Shown one piece after another: positions 8,370 to 60,862 of a stretch of DNA of 64,000 bases. Position 1 is the first letter of the stretch, and each line of letters begins with the position of its first letter. Position numbers and translations under genes: made by a program. The notes below the pieces were generated by a model that had not been told where the DNA came from, did not search any database, and saw only the letters and a program-made list of their open reading frames with translations. The stretch is from a virus (taxonomy: Duplodnaviria > Caudoviricetes): IMG/VR virus record IMGVR_UViG_3300021376_000006. The stretch is one strand, 5' to 3'.

Positions 8370-9674
8370 TTAAACCGCCTGTTGTCTTAGTGCTGCAATT
8401 TGTGCAGTTAAATCTTCAATCTGCTTTTTGATTTGTGTTTTTTGTGCTGACATTTGTTGCATGGCCATGGTTTTTTCAACAGGATTGGCACCTTGGGGAA
8501 ATTGTTGATTTAGGTCTGCCAACTGTGCTCGAGCTGCTTGCAGTTGTGCAACCAGTTGAGCTATCTGGCCTTGAATCTGTTGTTTGGCTGCTTTGCGTTC
8601 TTGCCCTTTTGCAAATTCTTCTGCGGGATTTCTAGCTGTGTCGTTGCCAATGCCAGATCCAGGAGCACCATATTCTGTAATAGGAGGAGTTTCCTTCCAG
8701 TTGGGCAATGGAGCATGATATCGACCTTTGTCTTGACCAGGTACTTTGATGTCTTGTATGGTGTCTGGTTCTTTAGGCATAAATTCTTTACCACGTTTAA
8801 CAGGAGATTGAATACCTTTGATTAGCTCTTGAGTAATTGGTGTTTCTTTGCCTGTGAAGGTTCTATACCATTTGTCATGGTAATACGAACCAATTGGTAC
8901 TAGCTCTTCCCTGCCATCTGGGTATATATGAATAAACCTTACTTTATCGTAGGCATCACTGCCAACCGGTCTTTTCATTCTAACAGTAACTTTTTCGCCT
9001 TCTTCGGAATCGTTGTCTTCTTGCACATTTTCGCTGATACGAGGATCTCCTCTTCCTCGAAAATATTGAGGAGGCAAACTTTTTTTTACCGGTCTTCCCC
9101 TAAAATAGTCAGTGTTATCTTGCCCAGGTATAATAGTATCTCGATCGGTAGGAACATCAGGTACCGGTATTGGGGGGGATTTCGGTGCTGGCCCAGGGTT
9201 TTCAAAGTTTTGTTTCAGTTGATCGTACATTTGATCAACCATGGGATCTCGTGGTGCAGGTCGGCCTGTAAAGTCTTCAATCCAATCTTGCCATGGACCG
9301 CTGTACCTGTCAAGTACTACTGGACCATTTGTCCCCGGAACGGTTATAATCCATTTGTGTGGATTTTCTGGATCATCGGGGTCTCGATCCAGAGAATGCT
9401 TTTCGTAGTCTTGTTCTGCCAGTTTGTATTCTTGCCATTCTTGAAATAAATCTCTTTTGACAGGATTGCTGTTGATCAATTGACCCAGCTCTTTTAAAAA
9501 ACTTTCTGACTCTTCTACACTTTCAGCCGCACCGTCACCTACCATCTTGTTACGAATTTTTTTGGCATTATCTGTGCCTTTTAGGTATCCGGGCCATCGT
9601 GGACCTGTTGGTTTCTTTTCGGCTGCTGTCATGGCATCCATTTTTTCCAACAGGTTTCGTAAATCACTCATCAA
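8370..9674 (-). CDS. Hypothetical protein, C-terminal coiled coil; probable virion protein
   Basis: 434 aa; MSDLRNLLE start; Q/A-rich heptads. Confidence 0.6.
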   Translation of the reverse strand: MMSDLRNLLEKMDAMTAAEKKPTGPRWPGYLKGTDNAKKIRNKMVGDGAAESVEESESFLKELGQLINSNPVKRDLFQEWQEYKLAEQDYEKHSLDRDPDDPENPHKWIITVPGTNGPVVLDRYSGPWQDWIEDFTGRPAPRDPMVDQMYDQLKQNFENPGPAPKSPPIPVPDVPTDRDTIIPGQDNTDYFRGRPVKKSLPPQYFRGRGDPRISENVQEDNDSEEGEKVTVRMKRPVGSDAYDKVRFIHIYPDGREELVPIGSYYHDKWYRTFTGKETPITQELIKGIQSPVKRGKEFMPKEPDTIQDIKVPGQDKGRYHAPLPNWKETPPITEYGAPGSGIGNDTARNPAEEFAKGQERKAAKQQIQGQIAQLVAQLQAARAQLADLNQQFPQGANPVEKTMAMQQMSAQKTQIKKQIEDLTAQIAALRQQAV

Positions 9675-10372
9675 TAGATGCCTTTGCCCACTGTGACTTT
9701 TTTAGATTTGTAACTGTTGCCCATTTTCTTTGGCACTCCACTTGAAGGTTTGTGACCAGGACCAGACATGGATGTTGCCACTGCACCTGCACTGCTGGCA
9801 CCACCTGTGGCCATCTCTGACAGTTGTTGGCCTTCTGCCATGCCTTGTTCACCCAGGCTGGCTTGTCCTGCCACAGCTCTACCTGTTGGCTTAGAACTGA
9901 TGCCAGTACGGCTTGACTTCATCTTTTCGCCACCGCCACCAATGTGTCTACTTCCGCCTAAACGTTCTGATTTTCTTGGCTTGTGTGTTTTACCTTTTTG
10001 CACTTGGCCGCCCTTGGCCAAAAAATCCTTGACAGCATCGTCGTAGTCATCTTCAACCAGCAGTTGGTCTAGAGCGTAATCAGCAGCTGATTCAGCGAAT
10101 GCCATCATTTCTGGCTCTTGACTTACTGCTTCGTACTTCATGTAATCTCTTACACTTTCTAGATACTGGCTTGCAAGAGTCAGTTTGCTTTGTACCCAAC
10201 CTTCTAGGCCTTCCATTTCGCTTACATCTCTAAGCAAACGATGTATTTCAATTGCTGCCTGTGCTGCTGAATACATCTGACTTCTAGCCATTTGCACTTC
10301 GTGATCTCTATGCATATCATCGGCTTCTTGAGCGATTATGCTGTTTTCTACTATAAATTCTGTTGGTTTCAT
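9671..10372 (-). CDS. Probable virion internal protein
   Basis: 233 aa; N-terminus MKPTEFIVE. Confidence 0.6.
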   Translation of the reverse strand: MKPTEFIVENSIIAQEADDMHRDHEVQMARSQMYSAAQAAIEIHRLLRDVSEMEGLEGWVQSKLTLASQYLESVRDYMKYEAVSQEPEMMAFAESAADYALDQLLVEDDYDDAVKDFLAKGGQVQKGKTHKPRKSERLGGSRHIGGGGEKMKSSRTGISSKPTGRAVAGQASLGEQGMAEGQQLSEMATGGASSAGAVATSMSGPGHKPSSGVPKKMGNSYKSKKVTVGKGIY

Positions 10373-10396: not shown

Positions 10397-10876
10397 TTAT
10401 TTTTTGGCGTTCAACTGCCTGGCTCTTTGTACCAATGGAATATAGGTATCATAATTTTTAACTTGTACAACCTTCCTAGGACGTTCAGCGGGTGGTGCCA
10501 ACGGAGTTGGTCGCGAAACCTTTGCTAGATCAATTAACAAATTATGTGTGTGTGTTTCGCGACGATTCAACAAATGATCTACAACAAATCTCCATTCAAT
10601 ACGTGCGCCATTTGTTTTTAACAAATTTTTGTTAACTGGTTGTTGGTCAACCTTAAAGTGTTCGAGTTCAAAACGACTGCGATTATCTAAATTTTCTAAA
10701 CAAAAAGTATGTACACCAGTGTCTAGGTCACAATACATGTGTTCGGTGATATAGTTCTGATAGCTAGGCCATCCAAATGTACGTTCGACCAGCATTTCGT
10801 TGTCAACATAAATTCTGTAAATTGGGGGATTGTCGCTCCAGTGGCTGTAAACATCAACCTCCAATTTAGTATGCAT
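10397..10876 (-). CDS. Hypothetical protein
   Basis: 159 aa ORF. Confidence 0.7.
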   Translation of the reverse strand: MHTKLEVDVYSHWSDNPPIYRIYVDNEMLVERTFGWPSYQNYITEHMYCDLDTGVHTFCLENLDNRSRFELEHFKVDQQPVNKNLLKTNGARIEWRFVVDHLLNRRETHTHNLLIDLAKVSRPTPLAPPAERPRKVVQVKNYDTYIPLVQRARQLNAKK

Positions 10877-12096
10877 TATTTTTTTCTACCTTGGCAATGA
10901 GCTCGCTGGCTAAAGCCTCGAGGACGATTGCAGTTGATGCTGCGTTTGTATTTGGCGCTCCATTTTTCTTTCAATGTGGCTATTTGTTCTTTCAATTGTT
11001 CTACACTGTCGACTAAATGCATTTTTTTAAGTTGTCTGTTTACTTCACCGGGACTTATATCATTGGTCAGACTGTGACTATATCTTGGATCGCGGGCCTG
11101 TTTTTTATTTGCAATAACACCTACACCAGCAGTTTCATAGTAACGATCGCGACTGCGTTTTTTAACTTCCGACTCCAGACCATAATTTTCACCGCCCCAC
11201 TTCAGCATAGGATCGTCCATTCTGGCTGTAGCAGGATCGCTTTTGATTCTTTTGCCTAATTCAGTGTCATGTACATGACCTTTAAAGTCACCGGGCATCT
11301 TCTCTGTTGGTTTATCCCAAGGCGCCTGATTACCAATCACATTGTCTTGACCAGGTGGGTATTTGCCAGTATTGTATTTGTCTTGTTTGTACAATTGGTA
11401 AGTTAATTTGCCGGTTTGTTTTTGAAGCGGAGTAAGTTCTGCTTCCTGATCCTCAGTAACAGTTTGTGGTATTTTATCCAGTATTCTACCAAGTTCAGCA
11501 TCATCTCTACCGTACATTTGTAACAAATATTCACTACGTAATTTAGGTGTGTCTCTAACTGCATTCCATGCTGCTCGTGCAGCTGTGCCATGACTGACAT
11601 CTACCTGTTGTCCGTTTATGGAGATAACTTTTTGACGCTCGTCTGCAATTATTACATACCCGTGCTTGTCAGCAGTTGTACATTCGTCCAAGCTTTTGAA
11701 CGTTTTAAAATAACCCGGATTGCCATCTTTCTTTACGCTGTCTGGGCGCAGGCGGTCTCGATCCGGAGTACCGACTGCTGCTATAAAAATTGTATTAGCA
11801 GGATTGAATTGCTGTTCTGGTAATTTGTAAGGATTGGTTACTTCCACAATACGATCACTGGGTACTCCAGCTGCGTTCATGAATACTGTTTTGTCTGAAA
11901 AATTAAAAGGGCTTTTAGGAAGTTCTGTTTTATTGCTAGTTGCAATATAGACGCTGTCGCGCCCGAACTTGTTTTGTAGGCTTTGAAATACTTCTCTGTG
12001 CCCGAGGTGAAAAGGTTGAAATCGGCCCGGGTATAGTACAACCAATTGCGGGCCAGCTTCAGCTACATACGATTCAAAAAGATCAGCAATATGCAT
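10876..12096 (-). CDS. HxGH cytidylyltransferase-like nucleotidyltransferase with C-terminal basic modules
   Basis: LYPGRFQPFHLGH; C-terminus EKWSAKYKRSINCNRPRGFSQRAHCQGRKK. Confidence 0.75.
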   Translation of the reverse strand: MHIADLFESYVAEAGPQLVVLYPGRFQPFHLGHREVFQSLQNKFGRDSVYIATSNKTELPKSPFNFSDKTVFMNAAGVPSDRIVEVTNPYKLPEQQFNPANTIFIAAVGTPDRDRLRPDSVKKDGNPGYFKTFKSLDECTTADKHGYVIIADERQKVISINGQQVDVSHGTAARAAWNAVRDTPKLRSEYLLQMYGRDDAELGRILDKIPQTVTEDQEAELTPLQKQTGKLTYQLYKQDKYNTGKYPPGQDNVIGNQAPWDKPTEKMPGDFKGHVHDTELGKRIKSDPATARMDDPMLKWGGENYGLESEVKKRSRDRYYETAGVGVIANKKQARDPRYSHSLTNDISPGEVNRQLKKMHLVDSVEQLKEQIATLKEKWSAKYKRSINCNRPRGFSQRAHCQGRKK

Positions 12097-36912: not shown

Positions 36913-37239
36913 TTAGTAGGGTGAAAAACTACTGCCGCAACCGCAAGTGGTCTGAGCTTGAGGATTTTCTATGTTAAAGCTAGCACCCATGGCATCTTCG
37001 GTATATTTGATTCGGGCACCCTGCAAATATTGTGCGCTTATAGAATCCACAAGCAGACCTACACCACCAAATTCAAGATCAAAATCATCTTCGTTTTGTA
37101 TTTCATCAAAAGTAAATCCATACTGCATGCCTGAGCAGCCACCACCCTGTACAAATATACGCAGTTTAAGATCCGGATTGCCTTCTTCGGCAATGAGTTC
37201 TCGAAGTTTAATTACTGCACTTTCTTGTAAATCAATCAT
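36913..37239 (-). CDS. erpA: Fe-S cluster insertion protein ErpA/IscA
   Basis: [20 protein letters not shown]. Confidence 0.95.
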
Positions 37240-37787
37240 GCACGGTCTCCTGCATAAATTCGTCTATTGACATATTCCCAATTGATAATACGCCATATGT
37301 TTTTCAAATAACGTTTCTTATCCGTACCATAGTCAAGTACCCATGCATGTTCCCACCAATCAACCAGCAGTGCTATATCTGTGCGTATGGCATGATTTCG
37401 AATTGTTTTGATTTGACCGCTGCGGCTAAGGTAAATCCAGTTTGAGCCCTGCAGTTTCATTGCTTCCGCTTCAAAATCTTTTTTGAAGTCAGTAAAGTTT
37501 CCAAAGTGTCTGTTGATCAATGCCAAACTAGCACCGGTTGGGCTGTTGCCATTTCGCGGTGGCCGTAATTGCGGAAAGTATATATTGTGCAAATATGCGC
37601 CAGCCTCGTTAAAGCTGGCATCACCTTCGCCTTTGTTGTATCTATCAACATATCCACGTGCTAATTTTCCGTAGTGATTTTCTATAGTTGCTTTACTCTT
37701 AACCGGACTCAATGCAGTCATTGAGTAAGGAAGTTTTTTTAACTCTAGTTTTTTCTTTTCTTCAGTTAAGGAAATAAGGTCTCTCAT
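37236..37787 (-). CDS. sod: Fe/Mn superoxide dismutase
   Basis: [26 protein letters not shown] (all four metal ligands). Confidence 0.9.
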
Positions 37788-49520: not shown

Positions 49521-50390
49521 CTATAATTTACCTAAATTCACATTTGCAAAATCAAATGTGACTCTGTTCAATACTCGTTTGTTCATGCCTTCAAATTTCC
49601 AACGTTTATGAATACCCAACCACTGTTCGGCAATGACCACATCACCATCTTGCCAGTCGTGATGGTATATATATTTTTCTTGCAACACATGATCTCTTAG
49701 CGATTCTACAAGCTCACGACTTTGATCTTGTGTCATGCCAACAAAATTTCTAAATTGTAAAAAAGGAAAAAATAGTCCAGTTTGTTTACCTATATTGGTG
49801 TAGACCAGGTTAGGAGTGTAATGTTCATTAAAGTTTTCAGTAACCCCTGCTGCTTTACCAAAATCAAAATCACTGTAAGTGCCTTTTTTCCACCCACATA
49901 CCATCTTTAAATCTTTAATTTTATCAATCATTTGGTCATTAAGATCTTTGTAGGCCAAAATATTATTGGTCCAGCTGGTTCTTGAGCCGAACGTGGACTT
50001 GATACCACGCAACCATACCAATGGTTTACGATCGGGTTGAGCGGGTTGATTACAATGCCAGTCTAAATCGTCTACGTGTCCAAACAGTCCCGGTTCGCCA
50101 TGTTCATCAAGCTCACCTGTAACTCTTACCACTTTATAGTTAGTATCTTGAATAATTACATTTTTAAAAGGCGCTATGTCCTTAAGCGGAGTGAGGTCTT
50201 CTAACTCACCAAATCTACTGCATATATTTGCTTCATCTTGCGCTGTAAGATGATTTTGATTTTTGCATACCACTAAGGTATTTGTTGCCAACCAACGGGC
50301 AATTTGATTAATATCCGAATCTGACGCAGTTAAAAAATCAAAGTCATCTAAAATTACAGTCCATCCATTGTCATGTATTTTGTGTTTCAT
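49521..50390 (-). CDS. TauD/TfdA-family dioxygenase
   Basis: LDWHCN, T.W.N, HDWQDGDVVI..GIHKR. Confidence 0.8.
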   Translation of the reverse strand: MKHKIHDNGWTVILDDFDFLTASDSDINQIARWLATNTLVVCKNQNHLTAQDEANICSRFGELEDLTPLKDIAPFKNVIIQDTNYKVVRVTGELDEHGEPGLFGHVDDLDWHCNQPAQPDRKPLVWLRGIKSTFGSRTSWTNNILAYKDLNDQMIDKIKDLKMVCGWKKGTYSDFDFGKAAGVTENFNEHYTPNLVYTNIGKQTGLFFPFLQFRNFVGMTQDQSRELVESLRDHVLQEKYIYHHDWQDGDVVIAEQWLGIHKRWKFEGMNKRVLNRVTFDFANVNLGKL

Positions 50391-50499: not shown

Positions 50500-50575
50500 T
50501 GGTGGAGATGACAGGACTCGAACCCGCTACCTATTGCTTGCAAAGCAACCGCTCTCCCAGCTGAGCTACATCCCC
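50500..50575 (-). tRNA. tRNA-Ala(TGC)
   Basis: G3:U70, loop TT-TGC-AA. Confidence 0.93.
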
Positions 50576-52083
50576 AATATATATTTTCTACATTCTTCAA
50601 GTTCGGGTATATAATCACCCAACTTGCTGTTTCTTGCATGATCTAAAGCATCATTATACAAGAAAAAGTTTTTAAGTGCAACCAAATCGCACTCGGGTTT
50701 TTTGCTGTAATAATCGTATAATGAATCTATGGCTGTCTTATTTGATTTGCCATCTGTGTAATACGTTTTGGTTTGTTGACACTTGTTCATAGATTCAACT
50801 ACCATGTCATGATTGGGATGATTATACGCAGACTGAAAACCCACATGATTGATTTGCAAATAAATTCCAGCATGTGGAAATTCTTGGTCCAAGAATTCAA
50901 ATAACAAATGCAAATTTGTCACATTGTATATTCCTGGAACACAATTAATAGAAATAGTATGTCCATGTGATTCCAACAATTTGGTATTAGCAATCACAGT
51001 ATCCCAATCAGTACCCCAACGCCAATAATCATTGACTTGACCGTAGCCATCTAAACTGACACTGAAATTTAAATTTGTAAAGTGATTGGCCAAGGTCAAA
51101 AACTTTTTAGAAATTTTCACTGCATTTGTGCCCAAAGTAAAATCAAAATCAGTTTTACCTGCGTCAATACATTTCTGCATAAATTCATACACTTCGGGTA
51201 TTACAGTAGGTTCGCCTCCAGTAAGATATACTCTAACTTTTGGATTTAGAGTTTCTATGTCAATTCTGTCTAATTTGGAATACTTAAAGGTTTGCTCGCC
51301 TGGAAAAACTATATTAAATTTTTTAAATTCTCTATCAATCAAATGACTGTGTTCAGGTCTGCAACCGCGGCACATGATGTTACACTTGTTGCTCAATCTA
51401 ATTTCATAATAATACGGCTGTGTAATCTTCTCTAAATCTTCATAGGAATTTATATCCAGTTTTGCCAACCATTCTTTGGTTTCAAACTGCCTATAGCTTT
51501 CAATATTTTTGTCTTCGTAATAATAACAAGTCTCACAATTACTTTCTAATCTTTCTCCGCGAAGCATCTTTTCGCGCACTGCGACAAAATTAGGATCAGA
51601 TTTCCAATCAGTAAATTTGTCCCATGTGGTTACATGATCTCGCCCTCTTGAGCAGGTCAACATATAACCACTCTCTTCGGTAATTGCTATCCAAGGATAG
51701 ATACAAAAACTTTTGTTGTTTTCTATGCTGTTGAAAAATTCTAAAAAGTTTTTGACATTTTTGTTATTTCTAAAACTGGTATTATGACCCAATTTTTCTA
51801 ATTCCAACATAACCTTGTATGAAGATAGCAGCGGCTTCCAATGTGGCCATTGTTGTTTGGGTTGATCTAACAACACAATCAAATCAAATTGTTTTGCAAC
51901 GCTGACGATTTGTCCAAAAGACAAATCTAAAATACTGGTATGATAATACCCAGGTTCGGTTATTAAATCGTCGCTGGCGATCAGCCCGTTGTTTATACAC
52001 TTGTTTTGTTTGGCTAGAATTGTAGTTTTTTTATCTGTGTCATCAGAGTTAGTTCCGATGCACAATATTTTTTGATCAAACAT
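50566..52083 (-). CDS. Radical SAM protein with SPASM/twitch-like domain; TAG stop inside tRNA-Ala
   Basis: CNIMCRGC, TGGEP, SLDG; CIYPW..C..CETC. Confidence 0.85.
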   Translation of the reverse strand: MFDQKILCIGTNSDDTDKKTTILAKQNKCINNGLIASDDLITEPGYYHTSILDLSFGQIVSVAKQFDLIVLLDQPKQQWPHWKPLLSSYKVMLELEKLGHNTSFRNNKNVKNFLEFFNSIENNKSFCIYPWIAITEESGYMLTCSRGRDHVTTWDKFTDWKSDPNFVAVREKMLRGERLESNCETCYYYEDKNIESYRQFETKEWLAKLDINSYEDLEKITQPYYYEIRLSNKCNIMCRGCRPEHSHLIDREFKKFNIVFPGEQTFKYSKLDRIDIETLNPKVRVYLTGGEPTVIPEVYEFMQKCIDAGKTDFDFTLGTNAVKISKKFLTLANHFTNLNFSVSLDGYGQVNDYWRWGTDWDTVIANTKLLESHGHTISINCVPGIYNVTNLHLLFEFLDQEFPHAGIYLQINHVGFQSAYNHPNHDMVVESMNKCQQTKTYYTDGKSNKTAIDSLYDYYSKKPECDLVALKNFFLYNDALDHARNSKLGDYIPELEECRKYILGM

Positions 52084-56874: not shown

Positions 56875-56997
56875 TTAGGTTCTATAATCCCCCAGGACAC
56901 GATTACTAATATCGCGTGTAATCATACCCCAGTAGGCGGTTAGCCCACATTCGGGTTGTGATATAAACGATTTACATAATAGTGCTGAAATCATCAT
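56875..56997 (-). CDS. Attenuator leader peptide (40 aa)
   Basis: MMISALLCKSFISQPECGLTAYWGMITRDISNRVLGDYRT; last codons form the antiterminator 5' strand. Confidence 0.7.
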   Translation of the reverse strand: MMISALLCKSFISQPECGLTAYWGMITRDISNRVLGDYRT

Positions 56998-57004
56998 AGT
57001 CTCT

Positions 57005-57033
57005 ATACTACATTTATTTATAATTGTTGTCAA
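57005..57033 (-). promoter_or_regulatory. Sigma70 promoter with nested T4-type late box
   Basis: TTGACA-17-TAGTAT; TATAAATA at 57015-57022. Confidence 0.7.
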
Positions 57034-57044
57034 CCTGTAAAATG

Positions 57045-57854
57045 TTAATTATTTGTTAATACTTGATTATTTATCAATTGATAATAATTGTCAAAGTCGC
57101 TATTGGGATAAAACAATGCATACAGTTTAAAAGTTTTCTTTAAAAAAATCAAATTAAATTGCTGATGCCAGCCATGATCATATATTAAATCCAAAAACCA
57201 TTTGCTTTTTTTACTAGTGCCGTTGTCCAGTGCGAAAAAATTTTTAACAAAGCCCAAACCAAAATATCTTAGTTCTGTCACTTGATTAATATAGTTATCT
57301 TGTTCTATTTTGATAGAACCGTGAAGTTTTTGATAAATTTTGAAAATATTGTTGTTATGATGCGATTCATCTACTAGTAAACGATGAAACATTTTTGCTG
57401 TTTGTTGATTTTGACAGGTTTTGTATAGCAAATAAAAACCAGTCCAAAGATAGCACTCACCTACGTAGTATCTGGTCAATAACTGTGTAAGATTACTGGT
57501 TTTAAATCTATCCTGCGCCTGCATTTCTGTGCTATTTAAATCATGCTGCGAAACATCTTTGTTAAAATTATTTTTAAAAAAATCTAATAGCATCTTGGCA
57601 TGCACTTCTTCATCATGTATCATTCTATCAAAATATTGACAAATCAAATTTTGGCTTTCGTACGTTAAATTGAGATCATGATAGTAATTTTGTTTAAAAT
57701 TGTTTCTAAGTGCAGGATATACTAGAGTAGTTTCATATTCCCCAAGATAGGTATTGTACAACCAATTACAAATAAATTCGTTTTCGAATTGATCATACTT
57801 TTGTCCGAGAGATTTGATCGCTCGATTAGAAAATATTGGAGTGTTAAATTGCAT
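57045..57854 (-). CDS. Ferritin-like di-iron enzyme
   Basis: E..DEEVH..GE..DESHH carboxylate/His pattern. Confidence 0.65.
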   Translation of the reverse strand: MQFNTPIFSNRAIKSLGQKYDQFENEFICNWLYNTYLGEYETTLVYPALRNNFKQNYYHDLNLTYESQNLICQYFDRMIHDEEVHAKMLLDFFKNNFNKDVSQHDLNSTEMQAQDRFKTSNLTQLLTRYYVGECYLWTGFYLLYKTCQNQQTAKMFHRLLVDESHHNNNIFKIYQKLHGSIKIEQDNYINQVTELRYFGLGFVKNFFALDNGTSKKSKWFLDLIYDHGWHQQFNLIFLKKTFKLYALFYPNSDFDNYYQLINNQVLTNN

Positions 57855-57886
57855 ACAAAGTATTTAACATTATTACTTTGATCATT

Positions 57887-57915
57887 AAAAAAGGGTCCTA
57901 AGCCCCTTTTTTTTT
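57887..57915 (-). terminator. Intrinsic terminator after pqqA
   Basis: AAAAAGGG-loop-CCCTTTTTT. Confidence 0.7.
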
Positions 57916-57929
57916 ACTAAATCGTAAAA

Positions 57930-58004
57930 TTAACGATTTGCAATATACATAGTGATTTCAAAACCAAAACGCATATCTTGAGCTGCTGGTGTAGTCCATG
58001 CCAT
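57930..58004 (-). CDS. pqqA: Pyrroloquinoline quinone precursor peptide PqqA (not in ORF track)
   Basis: MAWTTPAAQDMRFGFEITMYIANR: W..P..D.R.GFE.T.Y..NR with ExxxY; AAGGAG SD. Confidence 0.92.
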   Translation of the reverse strand: MAWTTPAAQDMRFGFEITMYIANR

Positions 58005-58123
58005 GTTATTTCTCCTTGATTAAAATTAACATACTGCAACAGTATGTATCAAGATTATAAGGCAATTTTTGGGTAAATTACATCCATACAGTCATGATTT
58101 TATGCTACGTAAATTTATTAGGT

Positions 58124-58384
58124 CTAGATAAAGTCCGGAGCAGGATAGTATCTCCGATTAGCCCATTGTTGTAATCTATGTTCATGCCAATAAATCATAA
58201 AATGATCTCTAGTTTCAAAATGTCTTTGGAATTCTTCAGTGACAGCCAAGCAACTGTTAAGATCTTGACCGCCCATTTCGCCTTTCATAAATGCAGTATC
58301 GCAATCCCAATAATACCGTTCTAGGTCTGCATAATTAAGATCCACTGCATTCAGTGCCACGGTTAATAAGAATATTTTGAGCAT
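58124..58384 (-). CDS. Small secreted protein
   Basis: Signal peptide; TATAAATA and AGGAG upstream. Confidence 0.7.
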   Translation of the reverse strand: MLKIFLLTVALNAVDLNYADLERYYWDCDTAFMKGEMGGQDLNSCLAVTEEFQRHFETRDHFMIYWHEHRLQQWANRRYYPAPDFI

Positions 58385-59012: not shown

Positions 59013-59188
59013 TTACAATCTCCTTATAAAAATTTGTTGCATTATATTATATATCCTGACAATGTCTATTGTCAACGCAATTTTAATAGATTTTTACCAA
59101 ATATATTTTTATTACTCCAATAGAATAAATCTAAGTCTACATTGCTCAATAAATATTTGTGCTTAAGGCTTTCAATTATGGGTGGACA

Positions 59189-60862
59189 ATGAATCGATAC
59201 GACGAACTTGAAATACTAATTAAAAAATTTACACGACCAATACCAGACACCGAAGAATACAACTCAAGACTCGAAGAAGAATTAGAAATTATCGCAAAAC
59301 TAGGTTTTGCTAAACATTTTCTTCGTGTAAGAGAAATTTTAGATTTAACCCGAGACATACCACACATTACTAGAGGATCTGCAGGCTCAAGCCTGATATG
59401 CTATCTTATGGGTATCAGTGATGTGGATCCTATACTGGAACGTATACCACTGTCGCGCTTTATGAATCCCAGGCGCGATGACCTACCTGACATCGACCTA
59501 GACTTTCCGCACTGGCAGCAGGAAACTGTGATGAACAGAATATTCCGTAGATGGCCTGGGCAGAGTGCTAGAGTGTCAAACTATGTAATGTATAAAGAAA
59601 AGTCGGCTGTTCGTGAAGCTGCCAAACGCTACGGTGCCAAGGGCAGATTAAAACGCAATTTTAATTTGGCAGATGTGGTGCCAGCTGAATATGTGGGCGA
59701 AGCTGAACGCCTGGCAGACAAACTGTTGGGCAAAAAACGCTGTATCAGCAAACACTGCGGCGGCATATTGATATTTGATCGTAGTGTACCTAAAAGTCTA
59801 ATCAATGGCGAAAATCAAATATTACTAGACAAATATGAAATAGAAGATCTAGAACACTTTAAGATTGATATTCTAGCCAATCGCGGACTAAGCCAGCTAT
59901 GGGAAATAGATCAAAGAGATTTGTTAGATTATCCTGAAACAGATGCTGCCACCGCTGCATTACTAAGTAGAGGCGATGTGCTGGGTGTGACACAAGCCGA
60001 AAGTCCGGCCATGAAGCGACTGTTTAGAGCCATACGTCCACAAAGTCGTGCCGACTGTGTGCTGGGCACAGCACTGATTCGTCCAGTGGCCACACAAGGT
60101 CGTAGGCGTGCAAGTGCGTTTCAAGACTGGACCCGAGACAACTTGAGCGAGACTATCGTGTTTGAAGATGATGCTATAGAACTTATATCAGAAATACTAG
60201 GATGTGATCAGTATGAAGCAGACATGTGGCGTAGAGCATTTGCCAAGAAGAATGAAGAAAAGATGTTTGAGTTTATGCAACAAATTGGTGACCATCCTCG
60301 TCGAAATGACGTCCTGCTGGCCTTACGTGAACTGAGTCATTTTGGACTGTGTCGTGCTCATGCTATCAACTTGGGTAGATTGATCTGGGCACTAGCTTAT
60401 CAAAAAGCACACAATCCAGAACAGTTCTGGCAAGCGGCATTAAAACATTGCCAAGGCTCATACGCTAGATGGGTATACTGGCAAGAAGCCAAATTGGCCG
60501 GAGCCGTGCCTGCCGCGGGCGAAGGCGGTGAAGTGGCAGACTTGATACAGGATGGTCGTTGGCGTTCGGGTAGATTTATTCCTGTGTGCCAAGAAATTCG
60601 TAAGCCAGGACAAGTTGAATTCTGTGGCCTAGTTGCTAACTATCGTGTGTTTAAATCAGGACCAAAAGAATACATAACCTTTGCCACACTAGGCACTGGT
60701 AATGGTAGATATCTTGATGTTATATTGCCACATGCTACCAGTTTTCACGAGCAGCCCATACTATGGGGAACGGGCAAGTTGGGGTATAAAAATAATTCAG
60801 AATATGTTACAGTATATCGTAGCAAGAAAATGAAATTAACTGATATAGCACACATAACATGA
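59189..60862 (+). CDS. dnaE: Minimal DNA polymerase III alpha-like (C-family), no PHP domain
   Basis: RGSAGSSLICYL, LPDIDLDF, SKHCGG, KIDILANRGL, C-terminal OB-like region; alternative GTG start at 59159. Confidence 0.85.
   Translation: MNRYDELEILIKKFTRPIPDTEEYNSRLEEELEIIAKLGFAKHFLRVREILDLTRDIPHITRGSAGSSLICYLMGISDVDPILERIPLSRFMNPRRDDLPDIDLDFPHWQQETVMNRIFRRWPGQSARVSNYVMYKEKSAVREAAKRYGAKGRLKRNFNLADVVPAEYVGEAERLADKLLGKKRCISKHCGGILIFDRSVPKSLINGENQILLDKYEIEDLEHFKIDILANRGLSQLWEIDQRDLLDYPETDAATAALLSRGDVLGVTQAESPAMKRLFRAIRPQSRADCVLGTALIRPVATQGRRRASAFQDWTRDNLSETIVFEDDAIELISEILGCDQYEADMWRRAFAKKNEEKMFEFMQQIGDHPRRNDVLLALRELSHFGLCRAHAINLGRLIWALAYQKAHNPEQFWQAALKHCQGSYARWVYWQEAKLAGAVPAAGEGGEVADLIQDGRWRSGRFIPVCQEIRKPGQVEFCGLVANYRVFKSGPKEYITFATLGTGNGRYLDVILPHATSFHEQPILWGTGKLGYKNNSEYVTVYRSKKMKLTDIAHIT

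What the first reader, a model, noticed from the sequence alone, without database searches (positions are those of the whole stretch)
57045..58004. Phage-encoded pqqA directly upstream of a di-iron enzyme
Seen: a textbook 24-aa PqqA (ExxxY) with a strong SD and its own terminator, missed by the ORF track; no pqqB-E is in the window. The next gene is a ferritin-like ExxH/ExxH di-iron protein. Known: PqqA is the consumed substrate of PQQ synthesis, and PQQ serves methanol/alcohol/glucose dehydrogenases. Inference: an auxiliary metabolic gene boosting host PQQ and periplasmic respiration during infection, pointing to a PQQ-using betaproteobacterial host. More speculatively, the peptide plus di-iron or radical SAM enzymes form a diverged RiPP pathway.
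Basis: partly seen in the sequence, partly recalled or inferred. Interest (0 to 1): 0.75.

Follow-up and report, generated by a model that had tools for sequence, protein, structure and literature searches.

The report
Phage pqqA cassette beside unrelated di-iron oxygenase
A giant lake-water phage carries a real, self-contained copy of the tiny gene for the peptide that bacteria convert into the cofactor PQQ, a kind of phage helper gene first reported in 2020; the iron enzyme gene next to it is a rare, uncharacterised oxygenase that looks like a separate passenger, not a partner.

Summary
Window 57930-58004 (-) encodes a 24-aa PqqA that scores above the curated cut-offs of Pfam PF08042 and NCBIfam TIGR02107. 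It has an AAGGAG Shine-Dalgarno site. A hairpin plus U-run follows it in all nine related contigs.

The next gene (57045-57854, -) is a confidently folded ferritin-like di-iron protein. E39, E82-x2-H85, E133, E163-x2-H166 and Y46 are invariant or nearly so across 42 relatives. Its nearest folds are aldehyde-deformylating oxygenase, RNR R2 and AurF/CmlI, not true rubrerythrin.

Lone pqqA is common in phages:
- It is in every cultured Methylophilales phage that the search returned, mostly unannotated.
- It is in at least 120 IMG/VR contigs. None of these has pqqB-E or the di-iron gene nearby.
- It was published for Lake Baikal methylotroph viruses (Coutinho 2020).
- This scan has already noted it about 90 times on other DNA.

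The pqqA/di-iron adjacency is confined to one syntenic phage lineage. A terminator and a separate conserved TAAATA box lie between the two genes. The adjacency is broken in one relative and absent from distant di-iron homologues.

Verdict: pqqA is a known kind of auxiliary gene. The RiPP idea is not supported. The di-iron enzyme's substrate is unknown.

The parts
57930..58004 (-). pqqA, the 24-codon PQQ precursor peptide gene (E16 and Y20 are the residues that become PQQ)
   Evidence: PF08042 38.8 bits and TIGR02107 39.1 bits, both above their cut-offs. The peptide is identical in 8 related contigs, which differ only by synonymous changes.
58012..58017 (-). Shine-Dalgarno AAGGAG, 7 nt upstream of the pqqA ATG
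   Evidence: Read directly from the sequence. Invariant in all 9 aligned cassettes.
58029..58047 (-). Conserved 8-bp hairpin (ACATACTG-TTG-CAGTATGT) in the pqqA leader. Inferred to be a 5' stabiliser of the short mRNA, or the stop of the upstream gene.
   Evidence: Called terminator-like. Folds. Identical in 7 of 8 relatives. L012 keeps an 8-bp hairpin of altered sequence.
58054..58059 (-). TATAAT box 6 nt before the hairpin, a possible -10 element of the cassette
   Evidence: Conserved in the alignment (TACAAT in L002), including L006 where the cassette sits elsewhere. No good -35 was seen, and the promoter scan did not call it. This part is inference.
57887..57912 (-). Hairpin plus U-run after the pqqA stop codon (intrinsic-terminator-like), lying between pqqA and the di-iron gene
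   Evidence: Folds. All nine related cassettes have a G+C stem plus T-run here, with different stem sequences. The window's stem is the weakest and was not called by the simple scan.
57861..57868 (-). GTTAAATA box 6 nt before the di-iron ATG. It resembles the T4-type late promoter (TATAAATA). The gene has no visible Shine-Dalgarno site.
   Evidence: TAAATA is conserved at this place in most relatives, for example AATAAATA in L004 and L012. A role as promoter is inferred.
57045..57854 (-). 269-aa ferritin-like di-iron carboxylate protein of a rare, uncharacterised family; probably an O2-dependent oxygenase or oxidase
   Evidence: Pfam Rubrerythrin, 44 bits, a generic match only. AlphaFold2 mean pLDDT 93, all-helical. 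Nearest folds: ADO Z 15.9, RNR R2 13.9, CmlI/AurF about 13.7. Y46, E82, H85, E133, E163 and H166 invariant and E39 nearly so in 42 relatives. The family has 55 clusters among 1.84 billion representatives.

Best explanation
pqqA is a self-contained expression cassette: a TATAAT box, a 5' hairpin, a strong Shine-Dalgarno site, a 24-codon ORF and a terminator. A giant freshwater T4-like phage carries it as an auxiliary metabolic gene. During infection it would supply extra PqqA peptide. Host PqqD/E, a protease, PqqB and PqqC use up one peptide for each PQQ molecule made. The extra supply would sustain PQQ-dependent (methanol or alcohol) dehydrogenases and so the energy supply of the infected cell.

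The 269-aa gene downstream is a separate passenger gene. It appears to have its own late-promoter-like box. It encodes a di-iron oxygenase or oxidase of the R2/ADO/AurF structural class, and its substrate is unknown. It sits in the same variable island of redox genes, next to the tRNA array, and is not part of PQQ synthesis.

Shown here: the identity of PqqA, its conservation, the cassette anatomy, the lack of pqqB-E in the window and in sampled viral loci, the di-iron ligand set and the fold.

Inferred: that host enzymes process the phage peptide, that this raises PQQ, and that the di-iron enzyme acts independently.
For: PqqA identity: both family models score above their cut-offs.

Purifying selection on pqqA:
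- 8 contigs encode the identical peptide, with 8 synonymously variable codons and 0 non-synonymous.
- In the same contigs the neighbouring di-iron proteins have diverged to 41-70% identity.

The cassette is autonomous:
- The TATAAT box, hairpin and Shine-Dalgarno site are conserved, and all 9 relatives have a terminator hairpin with a different stem.
- This includes L006, where the di-iron gene is not downstream.

Lone pqqA is general in phages:
- It is in Melnitz (four isolates), P19250A, Venkman, MEP301 and MEP401/402, in an uncultured Caudoviricetes genome from Manatee Spring and in two records of an Acinetobacter phage.
- 120 of 120 IMG/VR pattern hits encode true PqqA peptides.
- 0 of 120 have PqqB-E within the flanks.
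- Their neighbours are phage genes: YqaJ, Sak, capsid, endolysins, RegA.

A sampled Methylophilus genome itself keeps 5 pqqA copies, which fits peptide supply being limiting.

The same interpretation is published for Lake Baikal viruses (PMC7678222).

Independence of the di-iron gene:
- No di-iron homologue in 50,697 GenBank phage records.
- 0 of 120 viral pqqA loci carry it.
- pqqA lies 3 kb away in L006.
- Distant homologues lack pqqA nearby.
- A conserved TAAATA box sits before its start codon.
Against: - No expression or biochemical data exist.
- The window's terminator is weak, so read-through into the di-iron gene is possible.
- pqqA lies directly upstream of the di-iron gene in at least 8 distinct contigs, even where the enzyme is only 41% identical. 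This could reflect selection for linkage and not only shared ancestry.
- The exact phage peptide was not found in any bacterial genome sampled. Fit to a host PqqD/E is therefore assumed.
- The host is unknown.
- The rest of the phage genome could not be checked for pqqB-E.
Confidence: 0.78

Rival explanations
1. The peptide and the di-iron enzyme form a pathway. The di-iron oxygenase would hydroxylate or oxidise PqqA or a cross-linked intermediate, standing in for host PqqB or PqqC, or would make a different peptide-derived product (a diverged RiPP).
For: - The two genes are adjacent and share a strand in the window and in L002/L010, L004/L005, L007/L008, L009, L011, L012 and L013, while the enzyme diverges to 41% identity.
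- The PQQ pathway does need O2-dependent hydroxylation and oxidation steps (PqqB, PqqC; established knowledge).
- The enzyme has an oxygenase-type di-iron site and an aromatic-rich set of conserved residues.
Against: - All these contigs belong to one syntenic phage lineage, so they amount to a single observation.
- A terminator and a separate TAAATA box lie between the genes in the relatives.
- In L006 the genes are 3 kb apart, with AhpC and CMD genes between them.
- 0 of 120 viral pqqA loci and none of the cultured pqqA phages carry the enzyme.
- Distant family members have no pqqA nearby.
- The enzyme has no sequence match to PqqB or PqqC, and neither is among the 50 nearest solved folds listed.
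Confidence: 0.07
2. The di-iron protein is an oxidative-stress enzyme: a rubrerythrin-like peroxidase, or an oxidase working with the phage's peroxiredoxin and SOD genes. It is unrelated to pqqA.
For: - Its only Pfam match is Rubrerythrin.
- In relatives it sits among AhpC-type peroxiredoxin, an AhpF-like reductase and CMD/AhpD-like genes.
- The window also encodes an Fe/Mn superoxide dismutase.
Against: - It has no rubredoxin domain and no CxxC pair (sequence).
- At 269 aa it carries extra helices, and its best structural matches are substrate-oxidising enzymes (ADO, R2, AurF/CmlI, R2lox), ahead of rubrerythrin, ferritin and Dps-type bundles.
- Weak secondary Pfam affinities are to the hydroxylases COQ7, AurF and MiaE.
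Confidence: 0.15
3. The di-iron protein is a nucleic-acid or tRNA base hydroxylase (MiaE-like) that serves the adjacent 26-gene tRNA array.
For: - It lies directly upstream of the tRNA region.
- It has the E/ExxH/E/ExxH ligand pattern that MiaE has (MiaE's pattern is from my own knowledge).
- 6 of 42 family members give weak MiaE Pfam hits, best E 0.0012.
Against: - The window protein itself has no MiaE hit.
- The profile search gives MiaE (8fhc) only E 1.7.
- MiaE is not among the 50 best structural matches listed.
- Distant homologues sit in other contexts, with no tRNA genes noted on their short contigs.
Confidence: 0.07
4. The phage PqqA is not a substrate supply. It would be a decoy that ties up host PqqD/E, or a peptide with a role unrelated to PQQ.
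For: The exact phage peptide was not found in sampled bacterial genomes, so it is a phage-specific variant.
Against: - All positions typical of functional PqqA are kept (W3, P6, the G-x-E-x3-Y core), and the family scores equal those of bacterial copies.
- Most viral copies are identical to the host-type Methylophilaceae peptide.
- Shutting down PQQ would cut the energy supply of a methylotrophic host during infection (inference).
Confidence: 0.04

Closest known systems
Virus-encoded lone pqqA of Lake Baikal T4-like Methylophilaceae phages (VP_266; Coutinho et al. 2020, Microbiome 8:163, PMC7678222)
   Same: A pqqA precursor gene in a large freshwater T4-like phage, read as boosting host PQQ for methanol oxidation.
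   Different: No methanol dehydrogenase gene is in this window. That paper linked viral radical SAM genes to PQQ synthesis, but the radical SAM gene here is a twitch-domain type, not PqqE. The peptide variant here differs from the common Methylophilaceae type.
Unannotated pqqA in cultured Methylophilales phages (Melnitz, P19250A, Venkman, MEP301, MEP401/402)
   Same: A lone 23-24-codon pqqA without pqqB-E. In Melnitz it also lies beside a tRNA gene.
   Different: Peptide identity is 63-73%. None of these phages has the di-iron gene. In Melnitz a hypothetical ORF annotated on the opposite strand covers the gene.
Bacterial PqqA (PF08042 / TIGR02107), including the extra dispersed copies in Methylophilaceae
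   Same: Same length, the same W-x2-P and G-x-E-x3-Y motifs, and family scores like those of bacterial copies. A hairpin follows the gene, as in bacterial pqq operons (this last point is from my own knowledge).
   Different: It is phage-borne. The exact sequence was not found in sampled genomes. No pqqB follows it.
Ferritin-like di-iron oxygenases: cyanobacterial aldehyde-deformylating oxygenase, class I RNR R2, R2lox, AurF/CmlI
   Same: A four-helix core with the E / ExxH / E / ExxH ligands plus extra helices. Z 13.5-15.9 over about 200-230 residues.
   Different: Sequence identity is only about 10%. No Pfam model other than the generic Rubrerythrin model matches. AurF's extra histidine ligand (from my own knowledge) is not among the family's invariant residues. 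The invariant Y46 sits at a position of its own. The substrate is unknown.

Membership tests
PqqA (PF08042 / TIGR02107) | Score above the curated family cut-offs | tested here: met
   38.8 bits against 21.1, and 39.1 bits against 20
PqqA (PF08042 / TIGR02107) | A short peptide (about 20-40 aa) with the conserved Glu-x3-Tyr pair that becomes PQQ | tested here: met
   24 aa, with E16-I-T-M-Y20
PqqA (PF08042 / TIGR02107) | PqqD/E, PqqB and PqqC convert it to PQQ | not testable with these tools
   Needs complementation or in vitro assays
Phage-borne lone pqqA auxiliary gene (Coutinho 2020 type) | pqqA in a phage genome without pqqB-E nearby | tested here: met
   The window has phage genes and 26 tRNAs and no PqqB-E by tblastn. 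The whole genome was not available.
Rubrerythrin proper | A di-iron four-helix domain joined to a rubredoxin-type Cys4 domain | tested here: not met
   Four isolated Cys residues, no CxxC pair and no extra domain. The Pfam match covers only the generic di-iron helices, residues 67-169.
Ferritin-like di-iron carboxylate oxygenases (R2 / ADO / AurF class) | The six ligands E, ExxH, E, ExxH on a four-helix core | tested here: met
   E82, H85, E133, E163 and H166 are invariant and E39 nearly so in 42 relatives. Helical model with pLDDT 93. Z 13.5-15.9 to ADO, R2, CmlI/AurF and R2lox.
Ferritin-like di-iron carboxylate oxygenases (R2 / ADO / AurF class) | Binds two iron (or Mn/Fe) ions and activates O2 | not testable with these tools
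   Needs metal analysis and spectroscopy
PQQ biosynthesis enzymes PqqB / PqqC / PqqE (tested for the di-iron gene) | Sequence or fold membership | tested here: not met
   No NCBIfam PqqB, PqqC or PqqE hit. The fold is a ferritin-like bundle, whereas PqqB has a metallo-beta-lactamase fold and PqqC a fold of its own (own knowledge).
RiPP gene cluster (precursor gene plus tailoring enzyme) | Precursor and enzyme co-occur across independent lineages | tested here: not met
   0 of 120 viral pqqA loci have the enzyme, and no GenBank phage has it. Distant enzyme homologues lack pqqA nearby. In L006 the two genes are 3 kb apart.
RiPP gene cluster (precursor gene plus tailoring enzyme) | Precursor and enzyme are co-transcribed | tested here: inconclusive
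   A terminator hairpin and a TAAATA box lie between the genes, but read-through cannot be excluded.

The most novel reading that the evidence does not exclude
In this phage lineage the rare di-iron oxygenase acts on PqqA or on a cross-linked PQQ intermediate. It would be a phage-supplied substitute for the slow host hydroxylation and oxidation steps (PqqB/PqqC), or it would make a new peptide-derived quinone. The pair would then be a two-gene cofactor booster.
Probability: 0.07. Interest if true: 0.8.

Novelty: new member of a known kind. Interest (0 to 1): 0.25.

Why it matters
Phage-borne pqqA shows that phages of methanol-oxidising bacteria invest in the one consumable part of PQQ synthesis. 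It also marks the likely host metabolism. Standard gene callers miss the gene, and in phage Melnitz an ORF annotated on the wrong strand covers it, so its true spread is under-reported. This locus adds a clear picture of the gene as a compact, mobile expression cassette with conserved leader and terminator hairpins. The neighbouring di-iron enzyme belongs to a very small, apparently phage-associated family with no known function. It is worth a biochemical look, but the evidence here does not tie it to PQQ.

Tried and rejected
- Whole-genome search: no genome is held for this window.
- Di-iron gene in GenBank phages by tblastn: no match.
- Di-iron gene in representative bacterial and archaeal genomes by peptide pattern: 45 pattern hits, none a relative. 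The broad alignment A2 was too divergent to build patterns.
A degenerate DNA pattern was used instead.
- Exact window-type PqqA C-terminus (QDMRFGFEITMYIANR) in 401 sampled genomes of the order that contains the Methylophilus genome G002: not found in those searched. The host remains unidentified.
- Foldseek against PDB, AFDB clusters and the ESM Atlas: only weak rows, E at or above 0.02 and TM about 0.5-0.6. The VIA-align wide search gave the usable ranking.
- PDB profile search: only generic di-iron helix matches.
- Several context look-ups for distant di-iron homologues returned no DNA or contigs under 2 kb.
- Complex prediction for PqqA with the di-iron enzyme: not run, because the peptide (24 aa) is below the 30-residue minimum for a scored chain.
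- Radical SAM gene at 50566-52083 as a PqqE candidate: rejected. It is an NF033640 twitch-domain protein at 229 bits, and PqqE (TIGR02109) was not among the 22 families listed.
- Covariation in the 5' hairpin: too little sequence variation to count, with one divergent sequence only.

Full report
**What is at the coordinates.**
Both genes in the finding lie on the minus strand.
- Window 57930-58004 encodes MAWTTPAAQDMRFGFEITMYIANR.
- It scores 38.8 bits on Pfam PqqA (cut-off 21.1) and 39.1 bits on NCBIfam TIGR02107 (cut-off 20).
- AAGGAG lies 7 nt before the ATG.
- It is the only such ORF in the window.
- The next gene, 57045-57854, encodes a 269-aa protein whose only Pfam match is the generic Rubrerythrin model (44 bits).

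**The window is a large phage.**
- It holds 26 tRNA genes.
- It encodes a family B polymerase fragment, a short DnaE-type polymerase, a clamp-loader-like ATPase, PhoH, ClpB-like and DnaJ proteins, PstS, Fe/Mn SOD, a TauD-type dioxygenase and a twitch-domain radical SAM protein.
- G+C is about 37-44%.
- No whole genome is held.
- Unchecked notes from this scan call it a giant freshwater T4-like phage with other C1 and redox genes elsewhere.

**pqqA is a conserved, self-contained cassette.**
Relatives of the di-iron protein led to contigs from freshwater metagenomes.
- Eight distinct contigs encode exactly the same PqqA peptide. Their genes differ at 8 codons, all synonymously.
- In the same contigs the neighbouring di-iron proteins have diverged to 41-70% identity.
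- The aligned cassettes share a TATAAT box, an 8-bp leader hairpin, the Shine-Dalgarno site and the ORF.
- Each is followed by a G+C hairpin plus T-run. The stem sequence differs from contig to contig, as expected of a functional intrinsic terminator.
- The window's own terminator stem is the weakest, and the simple scan missed it.
- In L006 the same cassette, with four amino-acid changes, lies 3 kb from the di-iron gene and still has its leader and terminator.

**Lone pqqA is common in phages and already published.**
- tblastn of the peptide against 50,697 GenBank phage records hit four Melnitz isolates, P19250A, Venkman, MEP301 and MEP401/402. It also hit an uncultured Caudoviricetes genome from Manatee Spring and two records of an Acinetobacter phage. 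In most of these nothing is annotated at the site.
- In Melnitz the gene lies next to a tRNA, under an ORF annotated on the opposite strand.
All 120 encode true PqqA peptides, most of them identical to the Methylophilaceae type.
- None of the 120 has PqqB, C, D or E in its flanks. The reference proteins for that search were confirmed by NCBIfam.
- Their neighbours are ordinary phage genes of several backbones: YqaJ, Sak, capsid, endolysins, RegA, Hsp20.
- Coutinho et al. 2020 reported PqqA in a Lake Baikal T4-like virus of Methylophilaceae and read it as boosting methanol oxidation (PMC7678222). The Melnitz paper does not mention it.
- This scan has noted phage pqqA about 90 times on other DNA.
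- A sampled Methylophilus genome has five pqqA copies, which fits peptide supply being limiting.

**Host.**
- The cultured phages that carry pqqA nearly all infect Methylophilales.
- The C-terminal half of the window peptide (RFGFEITMYIANR) is the type seen in Burkholderiales such as Derxia and Oxalobacteraceae. It is not the Methylophilaceae type, which ends VTMYVMNK.
- The exact C-terminal 16 residues were not found in 401 sampled genomes of the order that contains Methylophilus.
- A PQQ-making betaproteobacterial host is therefore likely but not identified.

**The di-iron protein.**
- AlphaFold2 gives a confident all-helical model, with mean pLDDT 93 and pTM 0.91.
- Across 42 relatives, some only about 20% identical, the invariant residues are Y46, E82, H85, E133, E163 and H166, and E39 is nearly invariant. 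This is the classic six-ligand di-iron carboxylate site plus one tyrosine.
- The best structural matches are aldehyde-deformylating oxygenases (Z 15.9 and 15.1), RNR R2 (13.9), CmlI and AurF (13.7, 13.6) and R2lox (13.5). These rank ahead of ferritin, Dps and rubrerythrin-type bundles.
- Foldseek and Atlas searches found nothing closer.
- Language-model features point to the same class: soluble desaturase, AurF, ADO and PaaA.
- Weak secondary Pfam affinities are to COQ7, AurF and MiaE.
- It has no rubredoxin domain, so it is not a true rubrerythrin.
- The family is very small, with 55 clusters among 1.84 billion representatives. The pattern scan of representative genomes found no member.
- The contexts that could be read look phage-like.

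**Are the two genes a pathway?**
The adjacency is real, but it is confined to one syntenic lineage. The order there is GDSL lipase, small ORFs, pqqA, di-iron gene, then the tRNA region or a methyltransferase/radical SAM block.
- A terminator lies between the genes, and a conserved TAAATA box resembling a T4-type late promoter sits just before the di-iron start.
- L006 separates the two genes with peroxiredoxin and CMD genes.
- Distant di-iron homologues have no pqqA nearby.
- No other pqqA-bearing phage has the enzyme.
- The enzyme is unrelated to PqqB, PqqC or PqqE, and the nearby radical SAM gene is not PqqE.

I therefore read the two genes as neighbours in a variable island of redox cargo. 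In relatives that island also holds AhpC, AhpF-like and CMD genes. I leave about 7% for a real functional link.

**Limits.**
- No complex prediction was run, because the peptide is under the 30-residue minimum.
- The rest of the phage genome could not be searched.
- The function of the phage peptide and of the di-iron enzyme is inferred, not shown.

**Verdict.**
- The auxiliary-gene reading is supported by comparison and is already known.
- The RiPP reading is not supported.
- The di-iron enzyme is a new, uncharacterised member of the ferritin-like oxygenase class.
- Interest is low to moderate.

Noticed in passing
L262:2467-2572 (Methylophilales phage Melnitz, MZ577097.1 76100-76205): Melnitz pqqA (MKWTKPVAQEMRFGFEVTMYIMTR) lies on the plus strand, 14 nt before tRNA-Leu. 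The record annotates a hypothetical ORF on the opposite strand over it, so the real gene is effectively unannotated.
   Followed up: partly
window 58124-58384 (-): An 86-aa ORF just upstream of the pqqA cassette has a hydrophobic N-terminus. L002 has a close 86-aa homologue (9471-9731). It matches no Pfam or NCBIfam family.
   Followed up: partly
L002:7617-9225, L004:4712-6789, L006:3660-4960: Relatives carry a peroxide-defence set next to the pqqA/di-iron pair: an AhpC-type peroxiredoxin, an AhpF-like flavoprotein of 500 aa and a CMD/AhpD-like protein. The window lacks these at this spot but has an Fe/Mn SOD at 37236-37787.
   Followed up: partly
window 50566-52083 (-) and 49521-50390 (-): A 505-aa twitch-domain radical SAM protein (NF033640, 229 bits) and a TauD-family dioxygenase sit among the tRNA genes. 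Neither is a PQQ enzyme.
   Followed up: partly
L018:51-251 and L019:2-499: Two distant di-iron homologues are each preceded by a protein with the same basic, Cys-containing C-terminal motif (...NFADGKVKGKSRPGRVKRSGASC...MYHWCANMKSGR). Its function is unknown.
   Followed up: no
window 59159-60862 (+): A 567-aa DnaE-type polymerase reduced to the palm and finger domains (PF07733, PF17657) is transcribed divergently from the pqqA block. It is conserved in L002.
   Followed up: no
window 56875-57033 (-): A 52-codon ORF lies between the di-iron gene and the tRNA array, and L002 has a homologous 51-codon ORF (10866-11021). Another agent of this scan read it as a leader-peptide attenuator. I did not test that.
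   Followed up: no
G002 (the Methylophilus MAG behind L145): Five separate pqqA copies lie in one 2.1-Mb genome. Several of the Methylophilaceae pqqA loci sampled have no pqqB downstream.
   Followed up: partly
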